From NCBI RefSeq assembly GCF_050920415.1, contig NZ_CP169309.1: 64,000 nucleotides of DNA; one strand, given 5' to 3'. Position numbers: made by a program. How positions within the stretch are numbered: the stretch's first letter is position 1; each line of letters begins with the position of its first letter. The DNA is from Escherichia coli (GTDB lineage Bacteria > Pseudomonadota > Gammaproteobacteria > Enterobacterales > Enterobacteriaceae). Shown here piece by piece: positions 43,801-49,800 of the stretch.

Positions 43801-46800
43801 GAAGCCGATCGCATTCGGTTACGAAGCGTCGTAACTCTGCTTCAACTACTTTCGGCTGTTCTTTCAGGCGTTTCAGATAATCACGTCCTGGTTTTTCTAC
43901 CGCTGTTTTACTTCTTGAAACCTTCGCAGCCAGAGATGCAATGCGCTTTCTGCCTTTGTCTGTGCTAATGTCAGGCACTTCATTAACACCTTCACGGATC
44001 TGCTCGAGAAACTTTTCCAGCCCTTTTTCAACGTAAATTCTTGGTGCCATGTCTGGTGTGATTTCGATGATTGATAATTCACTCATTTGCTAACCTCCTC
44101 CCATATCTCGTTATCGTTGGCCACATCGCGAGCTTCTTTGCTGACGAAAGCCCACTTAATGCCTTCCTGTAAGGTGCGGAACTTCCAGCTCATGAATCCG
44201 CATGCAGTAACGCAGTACCAACCGTTGATGATTTTCCACTGCATAACTTGTTACCTCGGTCTGTTACCGTTGAGGTAATAATTATGCGTATCTGGTTTGA
44301 TGTCAATAGATATGAGTTAAAAAAATTACCCGTTAGGTAATCGAATAGGCAATAAAAAAGCCGCCATAAGGCGGCTTACTTACTGAAAAATATGATTTTA
44401 TTGTTTGTTTTTTTCGTTCTGGTTGATGACAAATTCAATGTAACTTTCGATCTTTGCCTTCTCTGTTTCAGGTAACAATGCGTAGCGCGAGCGGTCATAG
44501 TTGATAGTTGCAGGGTCATGCGGATGAATCAGTAGTTCATATCCGTGACGCCCGAATGCAGATGCAACATTCTCCAGGGTGGAAATGGAAACGCTGACCT
44601 CATTGTTTAACAGGCGGCTGATTGTCACCTGGGCGACGCCGGATGCGCGGTGAAGTTTTCCCTGTGTTGAAAGGTCGCGGCTTTCGCTCATCCAGCGTTC
44701 CAGGTTGTGAGCCGCCAGCTGACCAATGTCGCTTGGGCCGACAGGCTGAAAACCTTCCTGAGAAAGCGAGCGATCGATATCAAGCCAGTTACGGGGTTTA
44801 TTGGCGGCAGCTTCAATTTTTCGCGCAACCTGGTCGCCGATAACCTTCTTGCCAAGAGCCCAGCGGTTTACCAGATTTGCCTGAGTTCCAAGTTTTTCTG
44901 CCATCCGCGTCTGAACACCATTGAATTCACGGTCGATCAAGTCGTTGAGATTTTGCCTGCGGACGTCCTGGATACTTTTCATTTTCTGGAAAATCGCCTC
45001 ATATATGAATCAGTAGATGATTCAATTTAAAGCAATATTACCCAACAGGTAAATGCACCTCATAGGTAACTATCCTTGATTTTTGTTACCTTATGGGTGA
45101 ATATTTATTATCTGAAATAAATATCAGGCAATAGCTATGAGCGATAACGGACATTTCGATTTCAAAAAGCACTGGCTTGCACTTACTCCGGATGAGCGTG
45201 AAGCCTTCGCACAGGAAGCCGGAACGACGAGTCACTATATCCAGACTCACTTAACAGGTAAGCGAAAAATGCCAGGTAAAGTATTGATGAATGGGCTTTT
45301 TAAAGCCTGTAAAACAAGACAATGGCTGCGCTCAAAAGCAGAACTGGCATACTTCTTCTACTCATGATATCCAGCTACAACCCTCTGTAGACCGCCATCC
45401 GGCGGTCTTTTCATATCTATTCGTACCTTAAAGGTAATAAAAAACCAAATCTGGTTGATCTTTTTTTTGTGTCAGCACAAAATAACCGTAATCCCAATAC
45501 TAATAACAGGGCTTACCATGGAAATCATTACACGTATTGATGCCGCAAAGCGCGGACTTAAACGCTACTACACCGGAAAACCATGTAAGCACGGACATGA
45601 CAGTGAACGCTGGGTTTACAACGGACACTGTGTTGAGTGCACCATGGAATCAAACCGTCGCATTAGGGCAGAGATTAAGCAGATCATGATTAATTCCTCC
45701 CCACAACATTCAAGCTGATAGCGGAGATTAATCATGAGCAGACATGCAACAGATTGGGCCTGGGAGACAGATCCAGGCAGCTCATCATTAAAGCTCATAC
45801 TGCTCTCGATGGCTGACAGAGCCGATGAATATAACCTCTGCTACCCCAGCATAGAACGCCTCGTTAAAGACACTTGCCTGAATAAAAAAACCGTGCAGGC
45901 CGGGCTTATATCGCTCATGAAAATGGGGCTTATTTCAGATACCGGAGAGAGAAAGGGAGCGACGAAAAGAGTGCGGGTTTTCTCTCTTAATATAACCAAA
46001 AACGGGAACATTAAAGGCAACCGGGAAGGGAGTAATGAACCCGAAAACGGAAATGTTACCGAAAACGGGAATATACCCAAAAACGGGATGTTGAATGATC
46101 CCAAAAACGGGATGTTGAATGATCCCAAAAACGGGATCCAGAACCAGTCATATAACCAGTCATTTAACCAAGAGAGGGGGAGCAGGACAAAAACCGGGGA
46201 TTCTGTGCCTCATGACCCCGGCGCAAACAACGCCGTGATGAATAACTTTGTTCCTCCTGGTGGGCCAGGGCAATTAGGCAAATTTGTCATGCATGAACAA
46301 TGGCAACCATCAGATGACTTTCTTCGGAAAAGCTCATTGCAGGGAATCTACCTGGACAGTCTGCCAACGGCACAGGAACTTGCAGAGTTCAGAATTTACT
46401 GGATGGCTGAGGGTAAGGCATACCATCAGGCACAGTGGGAGCAGAAGCTGGCAAGGCGGCTGCAGATTAGCAGACAGAAGCAATCAACATTACCTGATAA
46501 CAACGTTCCGCACTGGAACAGCCCTGAAGCGTGGGAGGATTTCTTGTGAACAACGTTTTTACCGCGATACAAAACCGTGACGGAGAAGCCCTTTCTCGCA
46601 TGTCAGGTTATGAGCATCAATACGTCAACAATGACAATGTGGTGAACATGTCAGCAGAGAGGCTTGTTGATGCCCTTTTCAAACAGCTGAAACAACTGTT
46701 TCCGGCGGCAGTAGTAACCAACCTGAAGACGCCAGAGCAGGAAGTTGCTGCAAAACAGCAGTGGATTGCTGCGTTTGCCGAAGGTGGGATCCGAACCCGT

Positions 46801-49800
46801 GAACAGGTTTCTGCTGGTATGCGCCACGCTCGCGCCAGTGAGTCTCCGTTCTGGCCGTCGCCAGGGCAATTCATCAAGTGGTGTAAAGACAGCAAGATGG
46901 TTCTTGGCGTCACCATTGACGATGTGATGGCGGAGTTTCACCGGTACAGCAAGGAAAAAAGTTTATATCCTGGTGGTCCCGAAAGATTCCCGTGGCGACA
47001 TCCGGTTATGTACTGGGTCGTATGTGATACCCGCCGTGCAATGTATCAGCGCCAGCTTAGCGAGATTGAGGTTGAGAAACACGCGCGCAGGCTGCTCGAT
47101 GATTGGGCGAAAAAGGTGGCTTCCGGACAGCAGATACCCGATCCGGTGATCAGCATACAGGCAAAGCCAGAGCCCATGAGTACGCCTCCGGACACAGGGA
47201 GAGACGTTTACCATCCACCAGGGCGAAGTTTCGGGTGTATGCCTAACGCCGCCACCCTGGGGGGAATAACACCGGCGCAGTGGCTAATGGAGGAATACAG
47301 GCGGGGAAAGGCGGCAGGATTTATCAAGTAATACCAGCGCGATAGCGCATTTTTTTACGTCTCAATAATTACCTATAAGGTAACAAAATATTCTAAACTC
47401 TATTGATTTAGTGTCTTATGTGGTTTTTAATTACCTCAGAGGTAAATCATGAGAAAACAGATACAGGCTCTTGGTCGACTCAAAACAGGCCAGATGAACA
47501 AAACAGAATCTGCGTATTGCCAGCACCTTGAGCAGCGTAAACGTGCAGGGGAAATCGCCTGGTATCGATTCGAGGGTATCAAGCTGCGGTTAGCTGACAA
47601 CACGTTCTATACGCCCGATTTCGCTGTGATGCTCGCCACCGGCGAGATGGAGCTGCACGAAGTGAAAGGGGGATTCTGGACCGATGACGCCAGAGTGAAA
47701 ACCAAAGTCGCCGCAGATCAGTATCCGTTCCGAATCATCGGGGTAACGGTTAAGCCAAAGAAAGCAGGTGGTGGCTGGAACATCGAAGAGTTCTGAATCG
47801 ACGATCTTTTTAGTTATCAATGTAATCAATAAGTTATGTGGATAAGCGAGGGTAAAGATGGAAAGTAATATCAAAGGGTTAGTTTCCGCCGGGCATGAGA
47901 TGGCTTCGGAACTGAAAGCAGAATGTGGTGCCGTTGATATGCGCAGTGTGGCAAAGCTGATCAGCGATTTGGCAACGCAACTGGAAGTGCAACTGGTGCG
48001 TGCTAATGCGCAGGACGAAGACAACCAGAGAGCCATTGAGTCAATTAAACAGGCTGATTCGGCTGTTAAGTTGGCACACGAGAAGTTTTCGGCGCTGGCG
48101 GCGAAACGTGCAATTCCAGCAATGGAACGCCTGTTAATGTTGCCAGCTGATGATGATTTGTTAAGTGAACAGGAACTTAAAGATTACGGTGTGGATATTG
48201 ATGCGCTCAACGCCTTCAAATTTCTGGCCGGACCAGAAACCGTGCTGGCACTACTGGATGAACGGGAAAGAAACCAGCAATACATCAAACGCCGTGACCA
48301 GGAGAACGAGGATATTGCGCTAACGGTAGGGAAGCTGAGAGTTGAGCTTGAGGAAGCAAAATCAAAACTCAACGAGCAGCGTGAGTATTACGAAGGTGTT
48401 ATCTCGGATGGAAGTAAGCGCATAGCAGAACTGGAAGCGCGGGAAATAAAACCAGCCAAAGGTGAAGTTCTGGTCGTTGTATCTGGTTTTACTGGTTGCG
48501 GAAAAAGCGCCATTGCCGGGGAAATAGAAATCGCGATGAAGGCTATTGGTGTACCGGTTAAGTGGACTAATGGCGATGCAGAAAAGCGCATGACTGGCGC
48601 TGACTGGCTGACTGCGATTGAGATGTACAAACCAACTGTGCGCATCGTGGAAGTTAATGTGCCCCGCGCCGCTGGCATTCGCATCAAAGGAAAGTGATAT
48701 GGCTAACTCATTACTTGAAACCTGCAACAACTGGCAGATTCAGAGGGCGGAGATTTTATCTCGCAATCCAGATATGGCAATGACAATCGATAATCTGGAT
48801 ACGCTAATTGAACGTACCGTGCGTTCTGCAATTGATATAGCACGTCGAGTTGACTGGGATTTCAGAGAAGCGGAGCGGCTTGCTAAAGAGCAGGAGAAAG
48901 CAGCGGGTAAAGGAGACTGATATGGATAAAAACACCACTGCTTACTGGAATCTGTCACTTGATACCGAATGCCCAAAATGCGGTCACAATTTCGATCTGC
49001 TTTGTGATGCTGATTTCTGGGAGTTTTCTGGAGCTAAACAGGCATGTGAAGAAATAAAAGGTTACGAAACATGCTGTCCAGAATGTAACCATGAATTTAA
49101 AACAGATTTCGTGTATTGAGGCATAACAAATGACCACTATTACCAGAGAACAGGCACAGAAAATTATTGAAGCAGCCGATGAGGTTATTAGTGCGCTGGC
49201 CGGAACTAACGAGGATGTTCACCCTGGTAGCGATAACATGCTACGCCTGTGGGATGACCTGAATGACCGTTACGCGCCGCCGGAAGTTGTGCGTGAGCTG
49301 GCGCGTATCGTGCTGGCATCGCTGGAAGCAGAACCAGTTGCTTATATTTTCAAACATCCGGCCGGGAAATTATTCTGGGCTTTAACGGATGAAAGCAATA
49401 AAGAGCAAGCGGACGTTATTCCTGTTTATGCTGCCGCGCCTGCGTCGGTTGTGCCGGATGATGCATCAGGGTCGCTTGCTTATGCTTACAAAGAGCTTAC
49501 GCCTGAGATTATGCGCGGTCATATCGCTGTATTCGAGCGATATGGAATAGCCCCAAACGATAGCATTACCACAATTCAGGCACTGCGAATCGCGCTGGAT
49601 GGCATAGAGCGGAGCGACGCCATGCTTCATGGTGCCGAACCCGTAAGCCAAACTTACAAGTTGAACGAGCTATCTGGCAACTATCCGGCAACTCCGGATA
49701 GTTGGATAAGCTGTAGTGAGCGAATGCCGGAAAAGAACAAGAACGTGCTTATTTCGGTGAATTTCGACAGCTCTCTGGTTGAACCGCTAATATGCTCCGC

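What the first reader, a model, noticed from the sequence alone, without database searches (positions are those of the whole stretch)
44264..47445. Two promoters share an identical operator-promoter-operator architecture with 62-bp operator spacing
At the leftward early promoter the operators start at 44264 and 44326. At the rightward promoter before the DUF1064 gene they start at 47369 and 47431. Both pairs are exactly 62 bp apart, start to start.

In both cases one operator lies 19 bp upstream of the -35 hexamer (TTGACA or TTGATT). The other operator abuts the -10 and covers the predicted start site.

A spacing of 62 bp is close to six helical turns. That would place two repressor dimers on the same DNA face, suggesting cooperative clamping of the promoter.
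Basis: seen in the sequence. Interest (0 to 1): 0.5.

Follow-up and report, generated by a model that had tools for sequence, protein, structure and literature searches.

The report
Repressor operator pairs bracketing two phage promoters
Two promoters of a phiV10/epsilon15-like prophage are each flanked by a pair of repressor-binding palindromes exactly 62 bp apart; the layout is real and conserved across the phage family, but it belongs to an immunity system whose repressor is already structurally characterised, so the advance is modest.

Summary
TTACC-N5-GGTAA occurs 7 times exactly in the window (0.02 expected). The pairs 44264/44326 and 47369/47431 are each 62 bp apart and share one layout: operator, 19 nt, -35, 17 nt, -10, with the second operator overlapping the -10's last base.

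The region is the immunity/replication module of a phiV10/epsilon15-like (Uetakevirus) prophage, 97-98% identical to published phages. Its 194-aa repressor is a full-length homologue of Salmonella phage SPC32H Rep (PDB 5D50). Papers citing that work describe Rep as a DNA-binding tetramer with two DNA-binding heads. The epsilon15 GenBank record already annotates the same palindromes as repressor-binding sites, including a 62-bp pair at PL.

Across about 200 related loci (Rep identity 42-100%), both promoters keep 62±1 bp. A second grammar has 73-75 bp at PL and an 18-bp tandem pair at the second promoter. No locus has 64-72 bp.

Best reading: one Rep tetramer bridges the -62 and +1 operators and bends or clamps the core promoter. 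This is inferred, not shown. The two modules are probably paralogues, and each operator is also tied to promoter elements, so independent action is not excluded.

Verdict: new member of a known kind, modest interest.

The parts
44326..44340 (-). O_L-up: distal operator of the leftward early promoter (TTACCTAACGGGTAA on the - strand), centred about -62
   Evidence: Exact motif match. It lies 19 nt upstream of the -35. The position is conserved in all PL modules examined. The equivalent site is annotated as repressor-binding in epsilon15.
44278..44306 (-). PL core promoter: TTGACA (44306-44301), 17-nt spacer, AATTAT (44283-44278)
   Evidence: Promoter scan scores 10 of 12. TTGAC is invariant across 66 distinct PL modules while the flanking sequence varies.
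44264..44278 (-). O_L-down: proximal operator (TTACCTCAACGGTAA on the - strand). It overlaps the last base of the -10 and covers the predicted TSS (about 44271).
   Evidence: Exact motif match. Geometry read. Conserved across relatives.
44083..44244 (-). First gene of the leftward early operon (53 aa). It is followed by the 344-aa ORF and the exonuclease/RecT genes. A TTACC half-site lies at 44251-44255, next to its ribosome-binding site.
   Evidence: ORF list. Homologous to phiV10 p39.
44358..44377 (-). Intrinsic terminator of the repressor gene, immediately upstream of O_L-up
   Evidence: Terminator scan. RNA fold of -17.7 kcal/mol. Annotated as a terminator in phiV10.
44398..44982 (-). rep: 194-aa repressor, a full-length homologue of SPC32H Rep (N-terminal HTH domain, middle dimerisation domain, C-terminal tetramerisation domain)
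   Evidence: phmmer against PDB 5D50 gives E 4e-42 over residues 1-190. Pfam HTH_3 match at residues 106-147. The N-terminal domain is the most conserved part of the family alignment.
45038..45100 (.). rep-cro intergenic operators: 45038-45052 (exact), 45055-45069 (GCACC...GGTAA, 2 mismatches) and 45086-45100 (1 mismatch). Spacings are 17 and 31 bp.
   Evidence: The same 17 + 30/31 arrangement is seen in epsilon15, SPC32H and other loci.
47337..47356 (+). Small hairpin (GCGC-GATA-GCGC) followed by A and T7, at the end of the replication genes. Probably a weak terminator that makes a new promoter necessary.
   Evidence: RNA fold of -7.4 kcal/mol. Annotated as a terminator in phiV10. Conserved in every related locus examined.
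47369..47383 (+). O_R2-up: distal operator of the second rightward promoter (TTACCTATAAGGTAA)
   Evidence: Exact motif match. The equivalent epsilon15 site, 35906-35922, is annotated as repressor-binding. Conserved across relatives.
47403..47431 (+). Predicted PR2 core promoter: TTGATT (47403-47408), 17-nt spacer containing TATGTGGTT, then TTTAAT (47426-47431)
   Evidence: Sequence. TTGA is fixed 19 nt after O_up in about 70 distinct modules. The promoter is not listed by the strict scan because the -10 lacks A at position 2.
47431..47445 (+). O_R2-down: proximal operator (TTACCTCAGAGGTAA). It covers the predicted TSS (about 47438) and contains the Shine-Dalgarno GAGG of the DUF1064 gene.
   Evidence: Exact motif match. 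Sequence. Conserved across relatives.
47449..47796 (+). DUF1064 gene, the first gene downstream of PR2. In relatives this slot holds either a DUF1064 gene or a RuvC-like gene behind the same module.
   Evidence: Pfam PF06356 match. Comparison of modules across loci.

Best explanation
**What it is.** The four palindromes are operators for the prophage's Rep repressor (window 44398-44982). The prophage is phiV10/epsilon15-like (genus Uetakevirus). Two Rep-controlled promoters carry the same bracket layout:
- the leftward early promoter PL;
- a second rightward promoter, PR2, which restarts transcription after a weak terminator at the end of the replication genes.

Each promoter has one operator centred near -62 and one centred on +1.

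**How it most likely works.**
- Rep of this family is described as binding DNA as a tetramer with two N-terminal-domain pairs, that is, two operator-binding heads.
- One tetramer most likely occupies both operators of a bracket at once. They lie about six helical turns apart, on roughly the same face.
- This would bend or micro-loop the 47-bp AT-rich core promoter and block the -10 and start site.
- Two-point attachment gives high occupancy, and so tight repression, from modest Rep concentrations.
- Induction would follow the family's known route: a LexA-controlled antirepressor (Ant) pulls the tetramer off the DNA.

**Shown here.** Motif enrichment; exact geometry; homology of Rep to the solved protein; conservation of the geometry across the family; and the existence of only two spacing classes.

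**Inferred.** Rep binding to these particular sites; the promoter start sites; bridging by a single tetramer; and dependence on helical phase.
For: **Motif and geometry.**
- 7 exact sites against 0.02 expected.
- Both promoters have the same operator-19-(-35)-17-(-10)/operator layout.

**Identity of the element.** The region is 97-98% identical to phiv142-3, PAS61 and phiV10.

**Link to the repressor.**
- Rep is a full-length homologue of SPC32H Rep, PDB 5D50.
- Citing papers describe Rep as a DNA-binding tetramer whose N-terminal-domain pairs come from different dimers, with one tetramer sufficing for repression (PMC9638917; PMC6868357).
- Its C-terminal tetramerisation domain resembles that of the DNA-looping repressor Rco (PMC9986798).
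- The epsilon15 record annotates the same palindromes as repressor-binding, including a 62-bp pair at PL and the distal site before the RuvC gene.
- Half-sites are invariant in every locus that has a Rep homologue at 42-100% identity. The Rep N-terminal domain, including the N36/L37/R40/W41 helix, is the most conserved part of the protein.

**Spacing census.**
- Among 181 distinct adjacent-operator modules, 120 are spaced 62 bp, 6 are 61 or 63, 13 are 73-76, and none are 64-72.
- The 61 and 63 variants arise by slippage in a T-run.
- The 73-75 class keeps O_up at 18-19 nt from the -35 and moves the full downstream site by 11-13 bp, about one turn.
- At PR2 the alternative is two operators 18 bp apart. 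'Two operators per promoter' therefore holds at both PL and PR2, which fits a two-headed tetramer.

**Feasibility of a short loop.**
- LacR shows phase-dependent repression in vivo down to 57.5-bp spacing, with a fitted helical repeat of 11-11.6 bp (PMC1762422).
- Tetrameric Rco loops operators separated by a 75-bp spacer, and a +5-bp insertion abolishes control (PMC4207663).

**Induction route.** phiv142-3, which is 98% identical over the immunity/replication region, carries an Ant homologue behind a LexA box.
Against: - No binding, stoichiometry, looping or TSS data exist for this element.
- I could not read the primary SPC32H and epsilon15 papers, so the operator arrangement they used is unknown to me.
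- The PL and PR2 modules look paralogous. Spacer identity reaches 68% between classes, and the Tyrion PL and PR2 spacers are clearly alike. Equal spacing is therefore partly inherited.
- Each operator is also fixed relative to a promoter element (19 nt from the -35; abutting the -10). With a 17-nt promoter spacer, that alone gives 62 bp.
- The 73-75 class probably reflects one ancestral event, so the evidence for periodicity is thin.
- Straight 62 bp of DNA spans about 21 nm, probably more than a tetramer with roughly 20-residue linkers can reach without substantial DNA bending. No strongly phased A-tracts were seen.
- Rep linker length does not covary with spacing.
- The same tetramer would also have to bind pairs 17-18 bp apart on different helical faces. 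That implies flexible heads, which weakens any strict phasing requirement.
- The PR2 -10 (TTTAAT) lacks the key A.
Confidence: 0.55

Rival explanations
1. The two operators of each pair act independently. O_down alone represses by occluding the -10 and start site. O_up has a separate job: blocking an UP-element/alpha-CTD contact, acting as a protein roadblock or back-up terminator against read-through from the upstream gene (rep at PL, the replication genes at PR2), or serving as a low-affinity reservoir site. On this view the constant 62 bp arises from two things. Each site is tied to its own promoter element, and the two modules are paralogues.
For: - O_up stays 18-20 nt from the -35 in every class, even where the full downstream site moves.
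- On the PL strand, O_L-up folds as an 8-bp hairpin (-6.4 kcal/mol) followed by U7. It sits just downstream of the rep terminator in the same transcriptional direction.
- Both brackets follow a terminator.
- The PL and PR2 spacers share ancestry.
- Single, unpaired operators exist at other promoters: 53620, 38197 and 45423 here, and before the tailspike and lysis genes in relatives.
Against: - Both members of each pair are perfect 10/10 half-site matches in nearly all of more than 100 variants. That is unexpected for an auxiliary site under weak selection.
- O_R2-up is not followed by a U-run, so the terminator role is not general.
- The repressor family is described as binding DNA as a tetramer with two heads, with dimers binding weakly (PMC9638917).
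- No spacing of 64-72 bp occurs in about 200 loci.
Confidence: 0.3
2. Each operator of a bracket binds its own Rep tetramer. The free heads then link PL, the rep-cro operators (712 bp away) and PR2 (2.3 kb away) in long-range loops or higher oligomers, as lambda CI links OL and OR. On this view the 62-bp spacing only sets the phasing of neighbouring tetramers.
For: - There are several operator clusters within 3.2 kb: 44264-44340, 45038-45100, 45423 and 47369-47445.
- The related looping repressor Rco can form octamers (PMC9986798).
Against: [quoted passage not shown]
- Nothing in the sequence data specifically calls for long-range pairing.
- Distances between the clusters vary freely among relatives.
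Confidence: 0.1
3. The palindromes are mainly targets of another protein, and Rep is not the relevant ligand at the two brackets. One candidate is the conserved 76-aa Cro-like protein (45137-45367), which could turn down early promoters during lytic growth.
For: - The Cro-like protein is highly conserved between the window phage and epsilon15, as are the half-sites.
- In lambdoid phages, Cro and CI share operators (established knowledge).
Against: - The epsilon15 record labels the sites as repressor-binding.
- Conservation of the Rep N-terminal domain tracks the invariance of the half-sites.
- Shared use by Cro would add to the Rep model rather than replace it.
Confidence: 0.05

Closest known systems
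Rep/Ant immunity system of Salmonella phage SPC32H (PDB 5D4Z, 5D50; Kim & Ryu 2013; Kim et al. 2016) and the repressor-binding sites annotated in phage epsilon15 (AY150271.2)
   Same: - The repressor is homologous over its full length (E 4e-42).
- The TTACC-N5-GGTAA operators are the same.
- The sites sit in the same places: PL, the promoter after the replication genes, and before terS and the portal-region gene.
- SPC32H and epsilon15 have the same 62-bp brackets at both promoters.
- A LexA-controlled Ant is present in a close relative that is 98% identical over this immunity/replication region.
   Different: - Rep is only 42% identical overall.
- The gene behind PR2 is DUF1064 here, as in SPC32H, whereas epsilon15 has a RuvC-like gene there.
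- epsilon15 and SPC32H have a third PL operator 76 bp further downstream. Here only a TTACC half-site remains near the ribosome-binding site.
- The epsilon15 annotation marks only the distal PR2 site and none of the rep-cro sites.
- I could not check whether the published work discusses the 62-bp bracket.
Rco repressor of Bacillus subtilis plasmid pLS20 (operators OI and OII)
   Same: - It is a tetrameric repressor whose N-terminal DNA-binding domain is reported as homologous in sequence.
- Its C-terminal tetramerisation domain is reported as structurally similar to that of SPC32H Rep (PMC9986798).
- It has two operators with a short spacer (75 bp), one of them overlapping the promoter.
- A +5-bp insertion destroys regulation (PMC4207663).
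- It is inactivated by an antirepressor.
   Different: - Its operators are arrays of 8-bp repeats bound by several tetramers, not single 15-bp palindromes.
- Its spacer contains a demonstrated static bend.
- It controls plasmid conjugation in a Gram-positive host.
- Looping is experimentally supported there and only inferred here.
LacI O1-O3 and GalR OE-OI repression loops in E. coli
   Same: A bivalent repressor with one operator at or near the start site and an auxiliary operator upstream. Short loops are phase-dependent: LacR shows this in vivo down to 57.5 bp, with a helical repeat of 11-11.6 bp (PMC1762422).
   Different: - The natural spacings are longer: 92 bp for lac and about 114 bp for gal (from my own knowledge).
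- The protein families are unrelated.
- Here both operators are equally strong and enclose only the core promoter.
Lambda CI at OL and OR
   Same: A prophage repressor controlling divergent early promoters through multiple palindromic operators. The rep-cro intergenic region here also has three sites.
   Different: - Lambda PL is covered by three adjacent operators about 20-24 bp apart, bound by dimers that pair through their C-terminal domains.
- Lambda induction is by RecA-stimulated self-cleavage.
- Here PL has two sites 62 bp apart bracketing the promoter, Rep has no peptidase domain, and induction in the family is by an antirepressor.

Membership tests
SPC32H/epsilon15-type Rep immunity system (Uetakevirus) | Repressor homologous over its full length to SPC32H Rep (N-terminal HTH DNA-binding domain, middle dimerisation domain, C-terminal tetramerisation/Ant-binding domain) | tested here: met
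   phmmer against PDB 5D50_A gives E 4e-42, aligning query residues 1-190 to chain residues 2-197. Invariant residues occur in all three regions of the family alignment.
SPC32H/epsilon15-type Rep immunity system (Uetakevirus) | 15-bp palindromic operators TTACC-N5-GGTAA at the positions annotated as repressor-binding in epsilon15 | tested here: met
   7 exact sites against 0.02 expected. The epsilon15 protein_bind 'repressor' features coincide with the motif at the equivalent positions: PL, before the RuvC gene, before terS and before gp3.
SPC32H/epsilon15-type Rep immunity system (Uetakevirus) | Rep binds DNA as a tetramer carrying two N-terminal-domain pairs | not testable with these tools
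   Known only from citing papers (PMC9638917, PMC6868357, PMC9986798). The C-terminal residues I160, Y162, L170, K175 and F184 are invariant, which is consistent with this but not a test.
SPC32H/epsilon15-type Rep immunity system (Uetakevirus) | LexA-controlled small antirepressor (Ant) encoded next to the tailspike gene | tested here: inconclusive
   tblastn finds no Ant homologue in the window. By synteny the gene would lie beyond position 64000. phiv142-3, which is 98% identical over the immunity/replication region, has an Ant homologue (87% identity) preceded by the LexA box CTGTATAAATATACAG.
Repression by a short DNA loop between two operators bracketing a promoter (LacI, GalR, Rco type) | Two operators for the same repressor, one upstream of the promoter and one at the start site | tested here: met
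   The operators are centred about -62 and +1 at both promoters. The arrangement is conserved in relatives.
Repression by a short DNA loop between two operators bracketing a promoter (LacI, GalR, Rco type) | Repression depends on the helical phase between the operators | tested here: inconclusive
   Comparative evidence only. Spacings are 61-63 bp (126 modules) or 73-76 bp (13 modules), with none between. The longer class probably stems from a single event, and the modules share ancestry.
Repression by a short DNA loop between two operators bracketing a promoter (LacI, GalR, Rco type) | Cooperative binding or physical loop formation by a multivalent repressor | not testable with these tools
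   This needs EMSA, footprinting, stoichiometry or single-molecule assays.
Lambda-type tandem operators with RecA-cleavable repressor | Three adjacent operators overlapping PL, and a repressor with an S24 peptidase (self-cleavage) domain | tested here: not met
   PL has two sites 62 bp apart and no adjacent triplet. Pfam finds only HTH-type domains in Rep and no peptidase domain.

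The most novel reading that the evidence does not exclude
The 62-bp bracket may be a molecular ruler for the unusual 'trans-paired' Rep tetramer. A single tetramer would wrap the whole core promoter (-69 to +8) into one of the smallest natural repression loops. The same protein would also be able to use a second geometry, tandem sites 18 bp apart. Whole phage lineages would then have switched between two promoter 'grammars': 62/62 versus 73-75/18. If true, the family would be a natural system for studying how a flexible two-headed repressor chooses between micro-looping and side-by-side binding. 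It would also supply the repression mechanism that a 2023 paper says has not been extensively characterised (PMC9986798).
Probability: 0.35. Interest if true: 0.5.

Novelty: new member of a known kind. Interest (0 to 1): 0.3.

Why it matters
The element itself is ordinary: it is the immunity region of a common E. coli prophage type.

Its value lies in the comparative result. Across Enterobacterales, Rep-type repressors always meet their two main lytic promoters through exactly two operators. These are either 62±1 bp (or 73-75 bp) apart around the promoter, or 18 bp apart in tandem.

That gives a concrete, cheaply testable model for how the structurally solved but mechanistically under-described Rep tetramer represses transcription. 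It also explains how the antirepressor can switch many promoters at once.

The result also suggests that phages with only 42% identical repressors share operator half-sites. This bears on cross-immunity among phiV10-, epsilon15- and Klebsiella-type prophages.

Tried and rejected
- **Primary papers.** I tried to read epsilon15 (Virology 2007, PMC2698709), SPC32H (J Virol 2013, PMC3807360) and SPC32H (PNAS 2016, PMC4983836). None is held. What I say about Rep biochemistry rests on citing papers, and I cannot say whether the 62-bp bracket has been published.
- **Independent inventions.** I asked whether PL and PR2 arose separately, and rejected this. The window's two spacers are only 43% identical (P about 0.06). 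Across the family, however, PL-versus-PR2 identity averages 53% and reaches 68%, so the modules are probably paralogues.
- **Linker length.** I looked for covariation between Rep linker length and operator spacing and found none.
- **Hypervariable operator centre.** I asked whether the central pentamer of O_up is specially variable. It is among the most variable columns, but so are the 8 nt upstream of it. This looks like ordinary lack of constraint next to a constrained promoter.
- **O_up as terminator.** I considered O_up as primarily a terminator hairpin. That is plausible only at PL, where a U7 run follows it, and not at PR2.
- **A third bracket.** The gp3 promoter has a GGTAA half-site exactly 62 bp after the operator at 53620, conserved in three phages. 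It sits in a different register relative to the shared TATGTGGTT motif, so I do not count it as a third bracket.
- **More spacing classes.** Further IMG/VR scans with reordered or divergent queries mostly returned the same two grammars.

Full report
**1. The observation**

The palindrome TTACC-N5-GGTAA occurs exactly seven times in the 64-kb window, against 0.02 expected from shuffles. The sites are at 44264, 44326, 45038, 47369, 47431, 50455 and 53620. With one mismatch, sites at 45086, 45423, 50473 and 38197 join them.

- **Leftward promoter (- strand).** The order is TTACCTAACGGGTAA (44340-44326), 19 nt, TTGACA (44306-44301), 17 nt, AATTAT (44283-44278), then TTACCTCAACGGTAA (44278-44264). 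The last T of the -10 is the first base of the proximal operator. The consensus scan lists this promoter at 10 of 12 matches.
- **Rightward promoter (+ strand).** The order is TTACCTATAAGGTAA (47369-47383), 19 nt, TTGATT (47403-47408), 17 nt, TTTAAT (47426-47431), then TTACCTCAGAGGTAA (47431-47445). The ATG of the DUF1064 gene is at 47449.

The geometry is exactly as described. One caveat applies. The rightward -10 lacks the A at position 2, so it fails the strict scan.

**2. What the region is**

Window 44000-47900 is 97-98% identical to Escherichia phages phiv142-3, PAS61 and phiV10, genus Uetakevirus, the epsilon15-like temperate podoviruses.

The prophage starts just after guaA with its integrase gene at 38254 and runs past the end of the window. 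The gene order is:

| Coordinates | Strand | Gene |
|---|---|---|
| 41049-42748 | - | RecT and exonuclease |
| 43052-44244 | - | Two small or unknown early-left genes |
| 44398-44982 | - | Repressor (rep) |
| 45137-45367 | + | Cro-like gene |
| 45734-46549 | + | DnaT-like initiator |
| 46549-47331 | + | Lambda-P-like gene |
| 47449-47796 | + | DUF1064 |
| from 47858 | + | Ead/Ea22-like genes |
| from about 50489 | + | Terminase |

Sources.

The 194-aa repressor aligns over its full length with the Rep repressor of Salmonella phage SPC32H, PDB 5D50 (E 4e-42).

Papers that cite the SPC32H work give the following picture.

- Rep binds DNA as a tetramer, while dimers bind weakly.
- The two N-terminal DNA-binding-domain pairs are formed by chains from different dimers.
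- One tetramer suffices for repression.
- A tetrameric antirepressor, Ant, removes it from DNA (PMC9638917; PMC6868357).
- Rep consists of a DNA-binding domain, a middle dimerisation domain and a C-terminal p53-like tetramerisation domain.
- That C-terminal domain is shared structurally with the DNA-looping repressor Rco of plasmid pLS20.

I could not obtain the primary papers.

**3. Are the palindromes repressor operators?**

The GenBank record of epsilon15 (AY150271.2) carries 'protein_bind: repressor' features that coincide with the same motif. They lie:

- before terS;
- before gp3 and the portal gene;
- in the ant-tailspike intergenic region;
- at three sites at PL, 32479, 32554 and 32616, the last two being 62 bp apart;
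- at one site (35906) between the replication gene and the RuvC-like gene, which is the position of the window's second bracket.

The epsilon15 annotation omits the proximal site at that promoter and the rep-cro sites. Both are plainly present in the sequence.

In 13 prophages from other genera, the same half-sites appear at the same positions. These include Superficieibacter, Erwinia, Pseudocitrobacter, Klebsiella, Citrobacter, Rahnella, Samsonia and Pantoea. Their Rep identity is 42-75%.

The N-terminal domain of Rep is the best-conserved part of the protein. About 25 of its 70 positions are invariant, including N36, L37, R40 and W41 in the presumed recognition helix. This matches the invariance of the half-sites.

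I therefore take the four sites to be Rep operators. This rests on homology, annotation and comparative evidence, not on a binding experiment.

**4. Conservation of the bracket**

I collected about 200 related loci:

- phage records;
- genome contigs;
- IMG/VR contigs;
- contigs encoding divergent Rep proteins.

Among 181 distinct sequences of adjacent operator pairs, the spacings are as follows.

| Spacing (bp) | Distinct modules |
|---|---|
| 17 | 5 |
| 18 | 11 |
| 20 | 1 |
| 30-31 | 3 |
| 40 | 1 |
| 48 | 19 |
| 61 | 1 |
| 62 | 120 |
| 63 | 5 |
| 64-72 | 0 |
| 73-76 | 13 |
| 106 | 1 |
| 118 | 1 |

**PL modules.** They all read O_up, 19 nt (18-20), TTGAC(A/T), 17 nt, an A/T-rich -10, then O_down. 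TTGAC is invariant, while spacer identity falls to 55%. The 61 and 63 variants differ only in the length of the T-run next to O_up.

**PR2 modules.** They follow a conserved small hairpin with a T7 run (GCGC-N4-GCGC-A-T7). They read O_up, 19 nt, TTGA(T/A)(T/A), a spacer ending in (T)ATGTGG(T/A)T, an A/T-rich -10, O_down containing the Shine-Dalgarno sequence, then the ATG. The downstream gene is either DUF1064 or a RuvC-like gene.

**A second grammar.** It exists in Rahnella-, Serratia-, Samsonia- and Pantoea-type loci.

- At PL, O_up stays 18-19 nt from the -35, and a TTACC half-site remains at about 61-62 bp. The full downstream operator lies at 73-75 bp.
- At PR2, the bracket is replaced by -35 TTGCAA followed by two operators 18 bp apart, the second again abutting the -10.
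- One locus (L009) combines a 62-bp PL with a tandem PR2.

At PL and PR2 the constant is therefore two operators per promoter. The proximal one always covers the -10 and start site.

**5. Mechanism**

- **Positions.** With the -10 at -12 to -7, O_down spans -7 to +8 and O_up spans -69 to -55. The centres are at about +1 and -62.
- **Phasing.** 62 bp is 5.9 turns at 10.5 bp per turn. The step to 73-75 bp is 11-13 bp. That is about one turn at the helical repeats of 11-11.6 bp fitted to LacR looping in vivo. LacR loops are effective down to a 57.5-bp spacing (PMC1762422).
- **Structural analogue.** Rco is a tetramer that loops operators separated by a 75-bp spacer, and it loses control when 5 bp are inserted (PMC4207663).
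- **Best-supported model.** One Rep tetramer holds both operators of a bracket, bends the AT-rich 47-bp promoter DNA and blocks open-complex formation.
- **Induction.** Ant, made when LexA is cleaved, releases the tetramer. phiv142-3, a relative 98% identical over this immunity/replication region, has an Ant homologue with a LexA box. The window itself ends before the expected position of the gene.

**6. Limits and rivals**

- **Shared ancestry.** The two modules are probably paralogues. PL-versus-PR2 spacer identity averages 53% and reaches 68%. In Tyrion the two core spacers are obviously alike. Identical spacing is therefore partly inherited.
- **Ties to promoter elements.** Each operator is also tied to a promoter element, which by itself fixes 62 bp.
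- **Thin periodicity evidence.** The 73-75 class looks like one ancestral event.
- **No linker covariation.** Rep linker length does not track spacing.
- **Reach.** A straight 62-bp segment spans about 21 nm, which probably exceeds the reach of the tetramer without DNA bending.
- **Possible separate role for O_up.** At PL, O_up can also fold as an 8-bp hairpin followed by U7, just downstream of the rep terminator. An independent roadblock or back-up terminator role is possible there, but not at PR2.

I put the bridging model at about 0.55 and independent action at 0.3. Long-range multi-tetramer assemblies get 0.1, and another primary ligand such as the Cro-like protein gets 0.05.

**7. Comparison and novelty**

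The element is a member of the SPC32H/epsilon15 Rep immunity family. Repressor homology and operator identity were tested and met. Ant could not be tested within the window.

It works like short-loop repression systems (LacI, GalR, Rco), but loop formation is untested. It is unlike lambda PL, which has three adjacent sites and a self-cleaving repressor.

Three things are already public:

- nearly identical phages have been sequenced;
- the repressor family has a solved structure;
- the epsilon15 record already marks the sites.

The finding is therefore a new member of a known kind. The family-wide census of two promoter grammars is, as far as I could check, a modest addition that makes the repression mechanism directly testable.

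Noticed in passing
window 50455-50487: Two operators 18 bp apart (TTACCACAACGGTAA and TTACCACGGTGGTTA) lie between a terminator (about 50418-50445) and the likely terminase small-subunit start (ATG at 50489). They overlap its ribosome-binding site. The same tandem pair occurs in epsilon15 and SPC32H, and epsilon15 annotates the first one as repressor-binding. The late packaging genes therefore appear to be directly Rep-controlled.
   Followed up: partly
window 53620-53634, 45423-45437, 38197-38211: Further single operators occur at three places. One is before the small gene preceding the portal gene (exact match). One is just after the cro terminator (1 mismatch), followed by a possible promoter TTGATC-17-CAAAAT. 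One is between attL and the integrase gene (1 mismatch, conserved in epsilon15 and SPC32H). Rep seems to control nearly every transcription unit of the phage.
   Followed up: partly
window 47417-47425 and 53678-53686 (exact); 47835-47843 (1 mismatch): The motif TATGTGGTT sits just upstream of the -10 in PR2 and again before the portal-region gene. In relatives it also occurs before the tailspike and lysis genes. It always lies 32-44 nt after a Rep operator. At PL the equivalent position reads ATACGC or ATATGG. It may mark a second promoter class or an activator site.
   Followed up: partly
window 45999-46136: Six copies of AAAACGG(G/A)A (1.3 expected), spaced 18-45 bp apart, all lie inside the DnaT-like replication initiator gene. 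They overlap a repeated PKNGMLND coding unit. This is probably the phage replication origin with its iterons, as with lambda ori inside gene O.
   Followed up: partly
loci L004, L005, L015 and L006-L018 compared with the window: Phages whose repressors are only 42-48% identical (epsilon15, SPC32H, Klebsiella and Rahnella prophages) use the same operator half-sites, TTACC and GGTAA. Either they are partly cross-immune, or specificity lies elsewhere, for example in the central 5 bp or in the Rep-Ant pairing.
   Followed up: no
window 44326-44348 and the equivalent columns in loci L019-L098: Among 78 loci with a 100% identical Rep, the central 5 bp of the distal PL operator and the 8 nt upstream of it are the most variable columns of the whole rep-PL region. 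Nearly every locus has a different pentamer, while the promoter between the operators is almost invariant.
   Followed up: partly
window 44318-44342 (- strand): As RNA, the distal PL operator forms an 8-bp hairpin (-6.4 kcal/mol) followed by U7. It lies directly downstream of the strong rep terminator and in the same direction. It could act as a back-up terminator against read-through into the early-left genes.
   Followed up: partly
loci L010 and L012: Enterobacterial-type Rep loci with the full operator grammar were recovered from contigs labelled Pseudomonas lundensis and an Advenella MAG. This suggests contamination, mis-binning or a wide host range.
   Followed up: no
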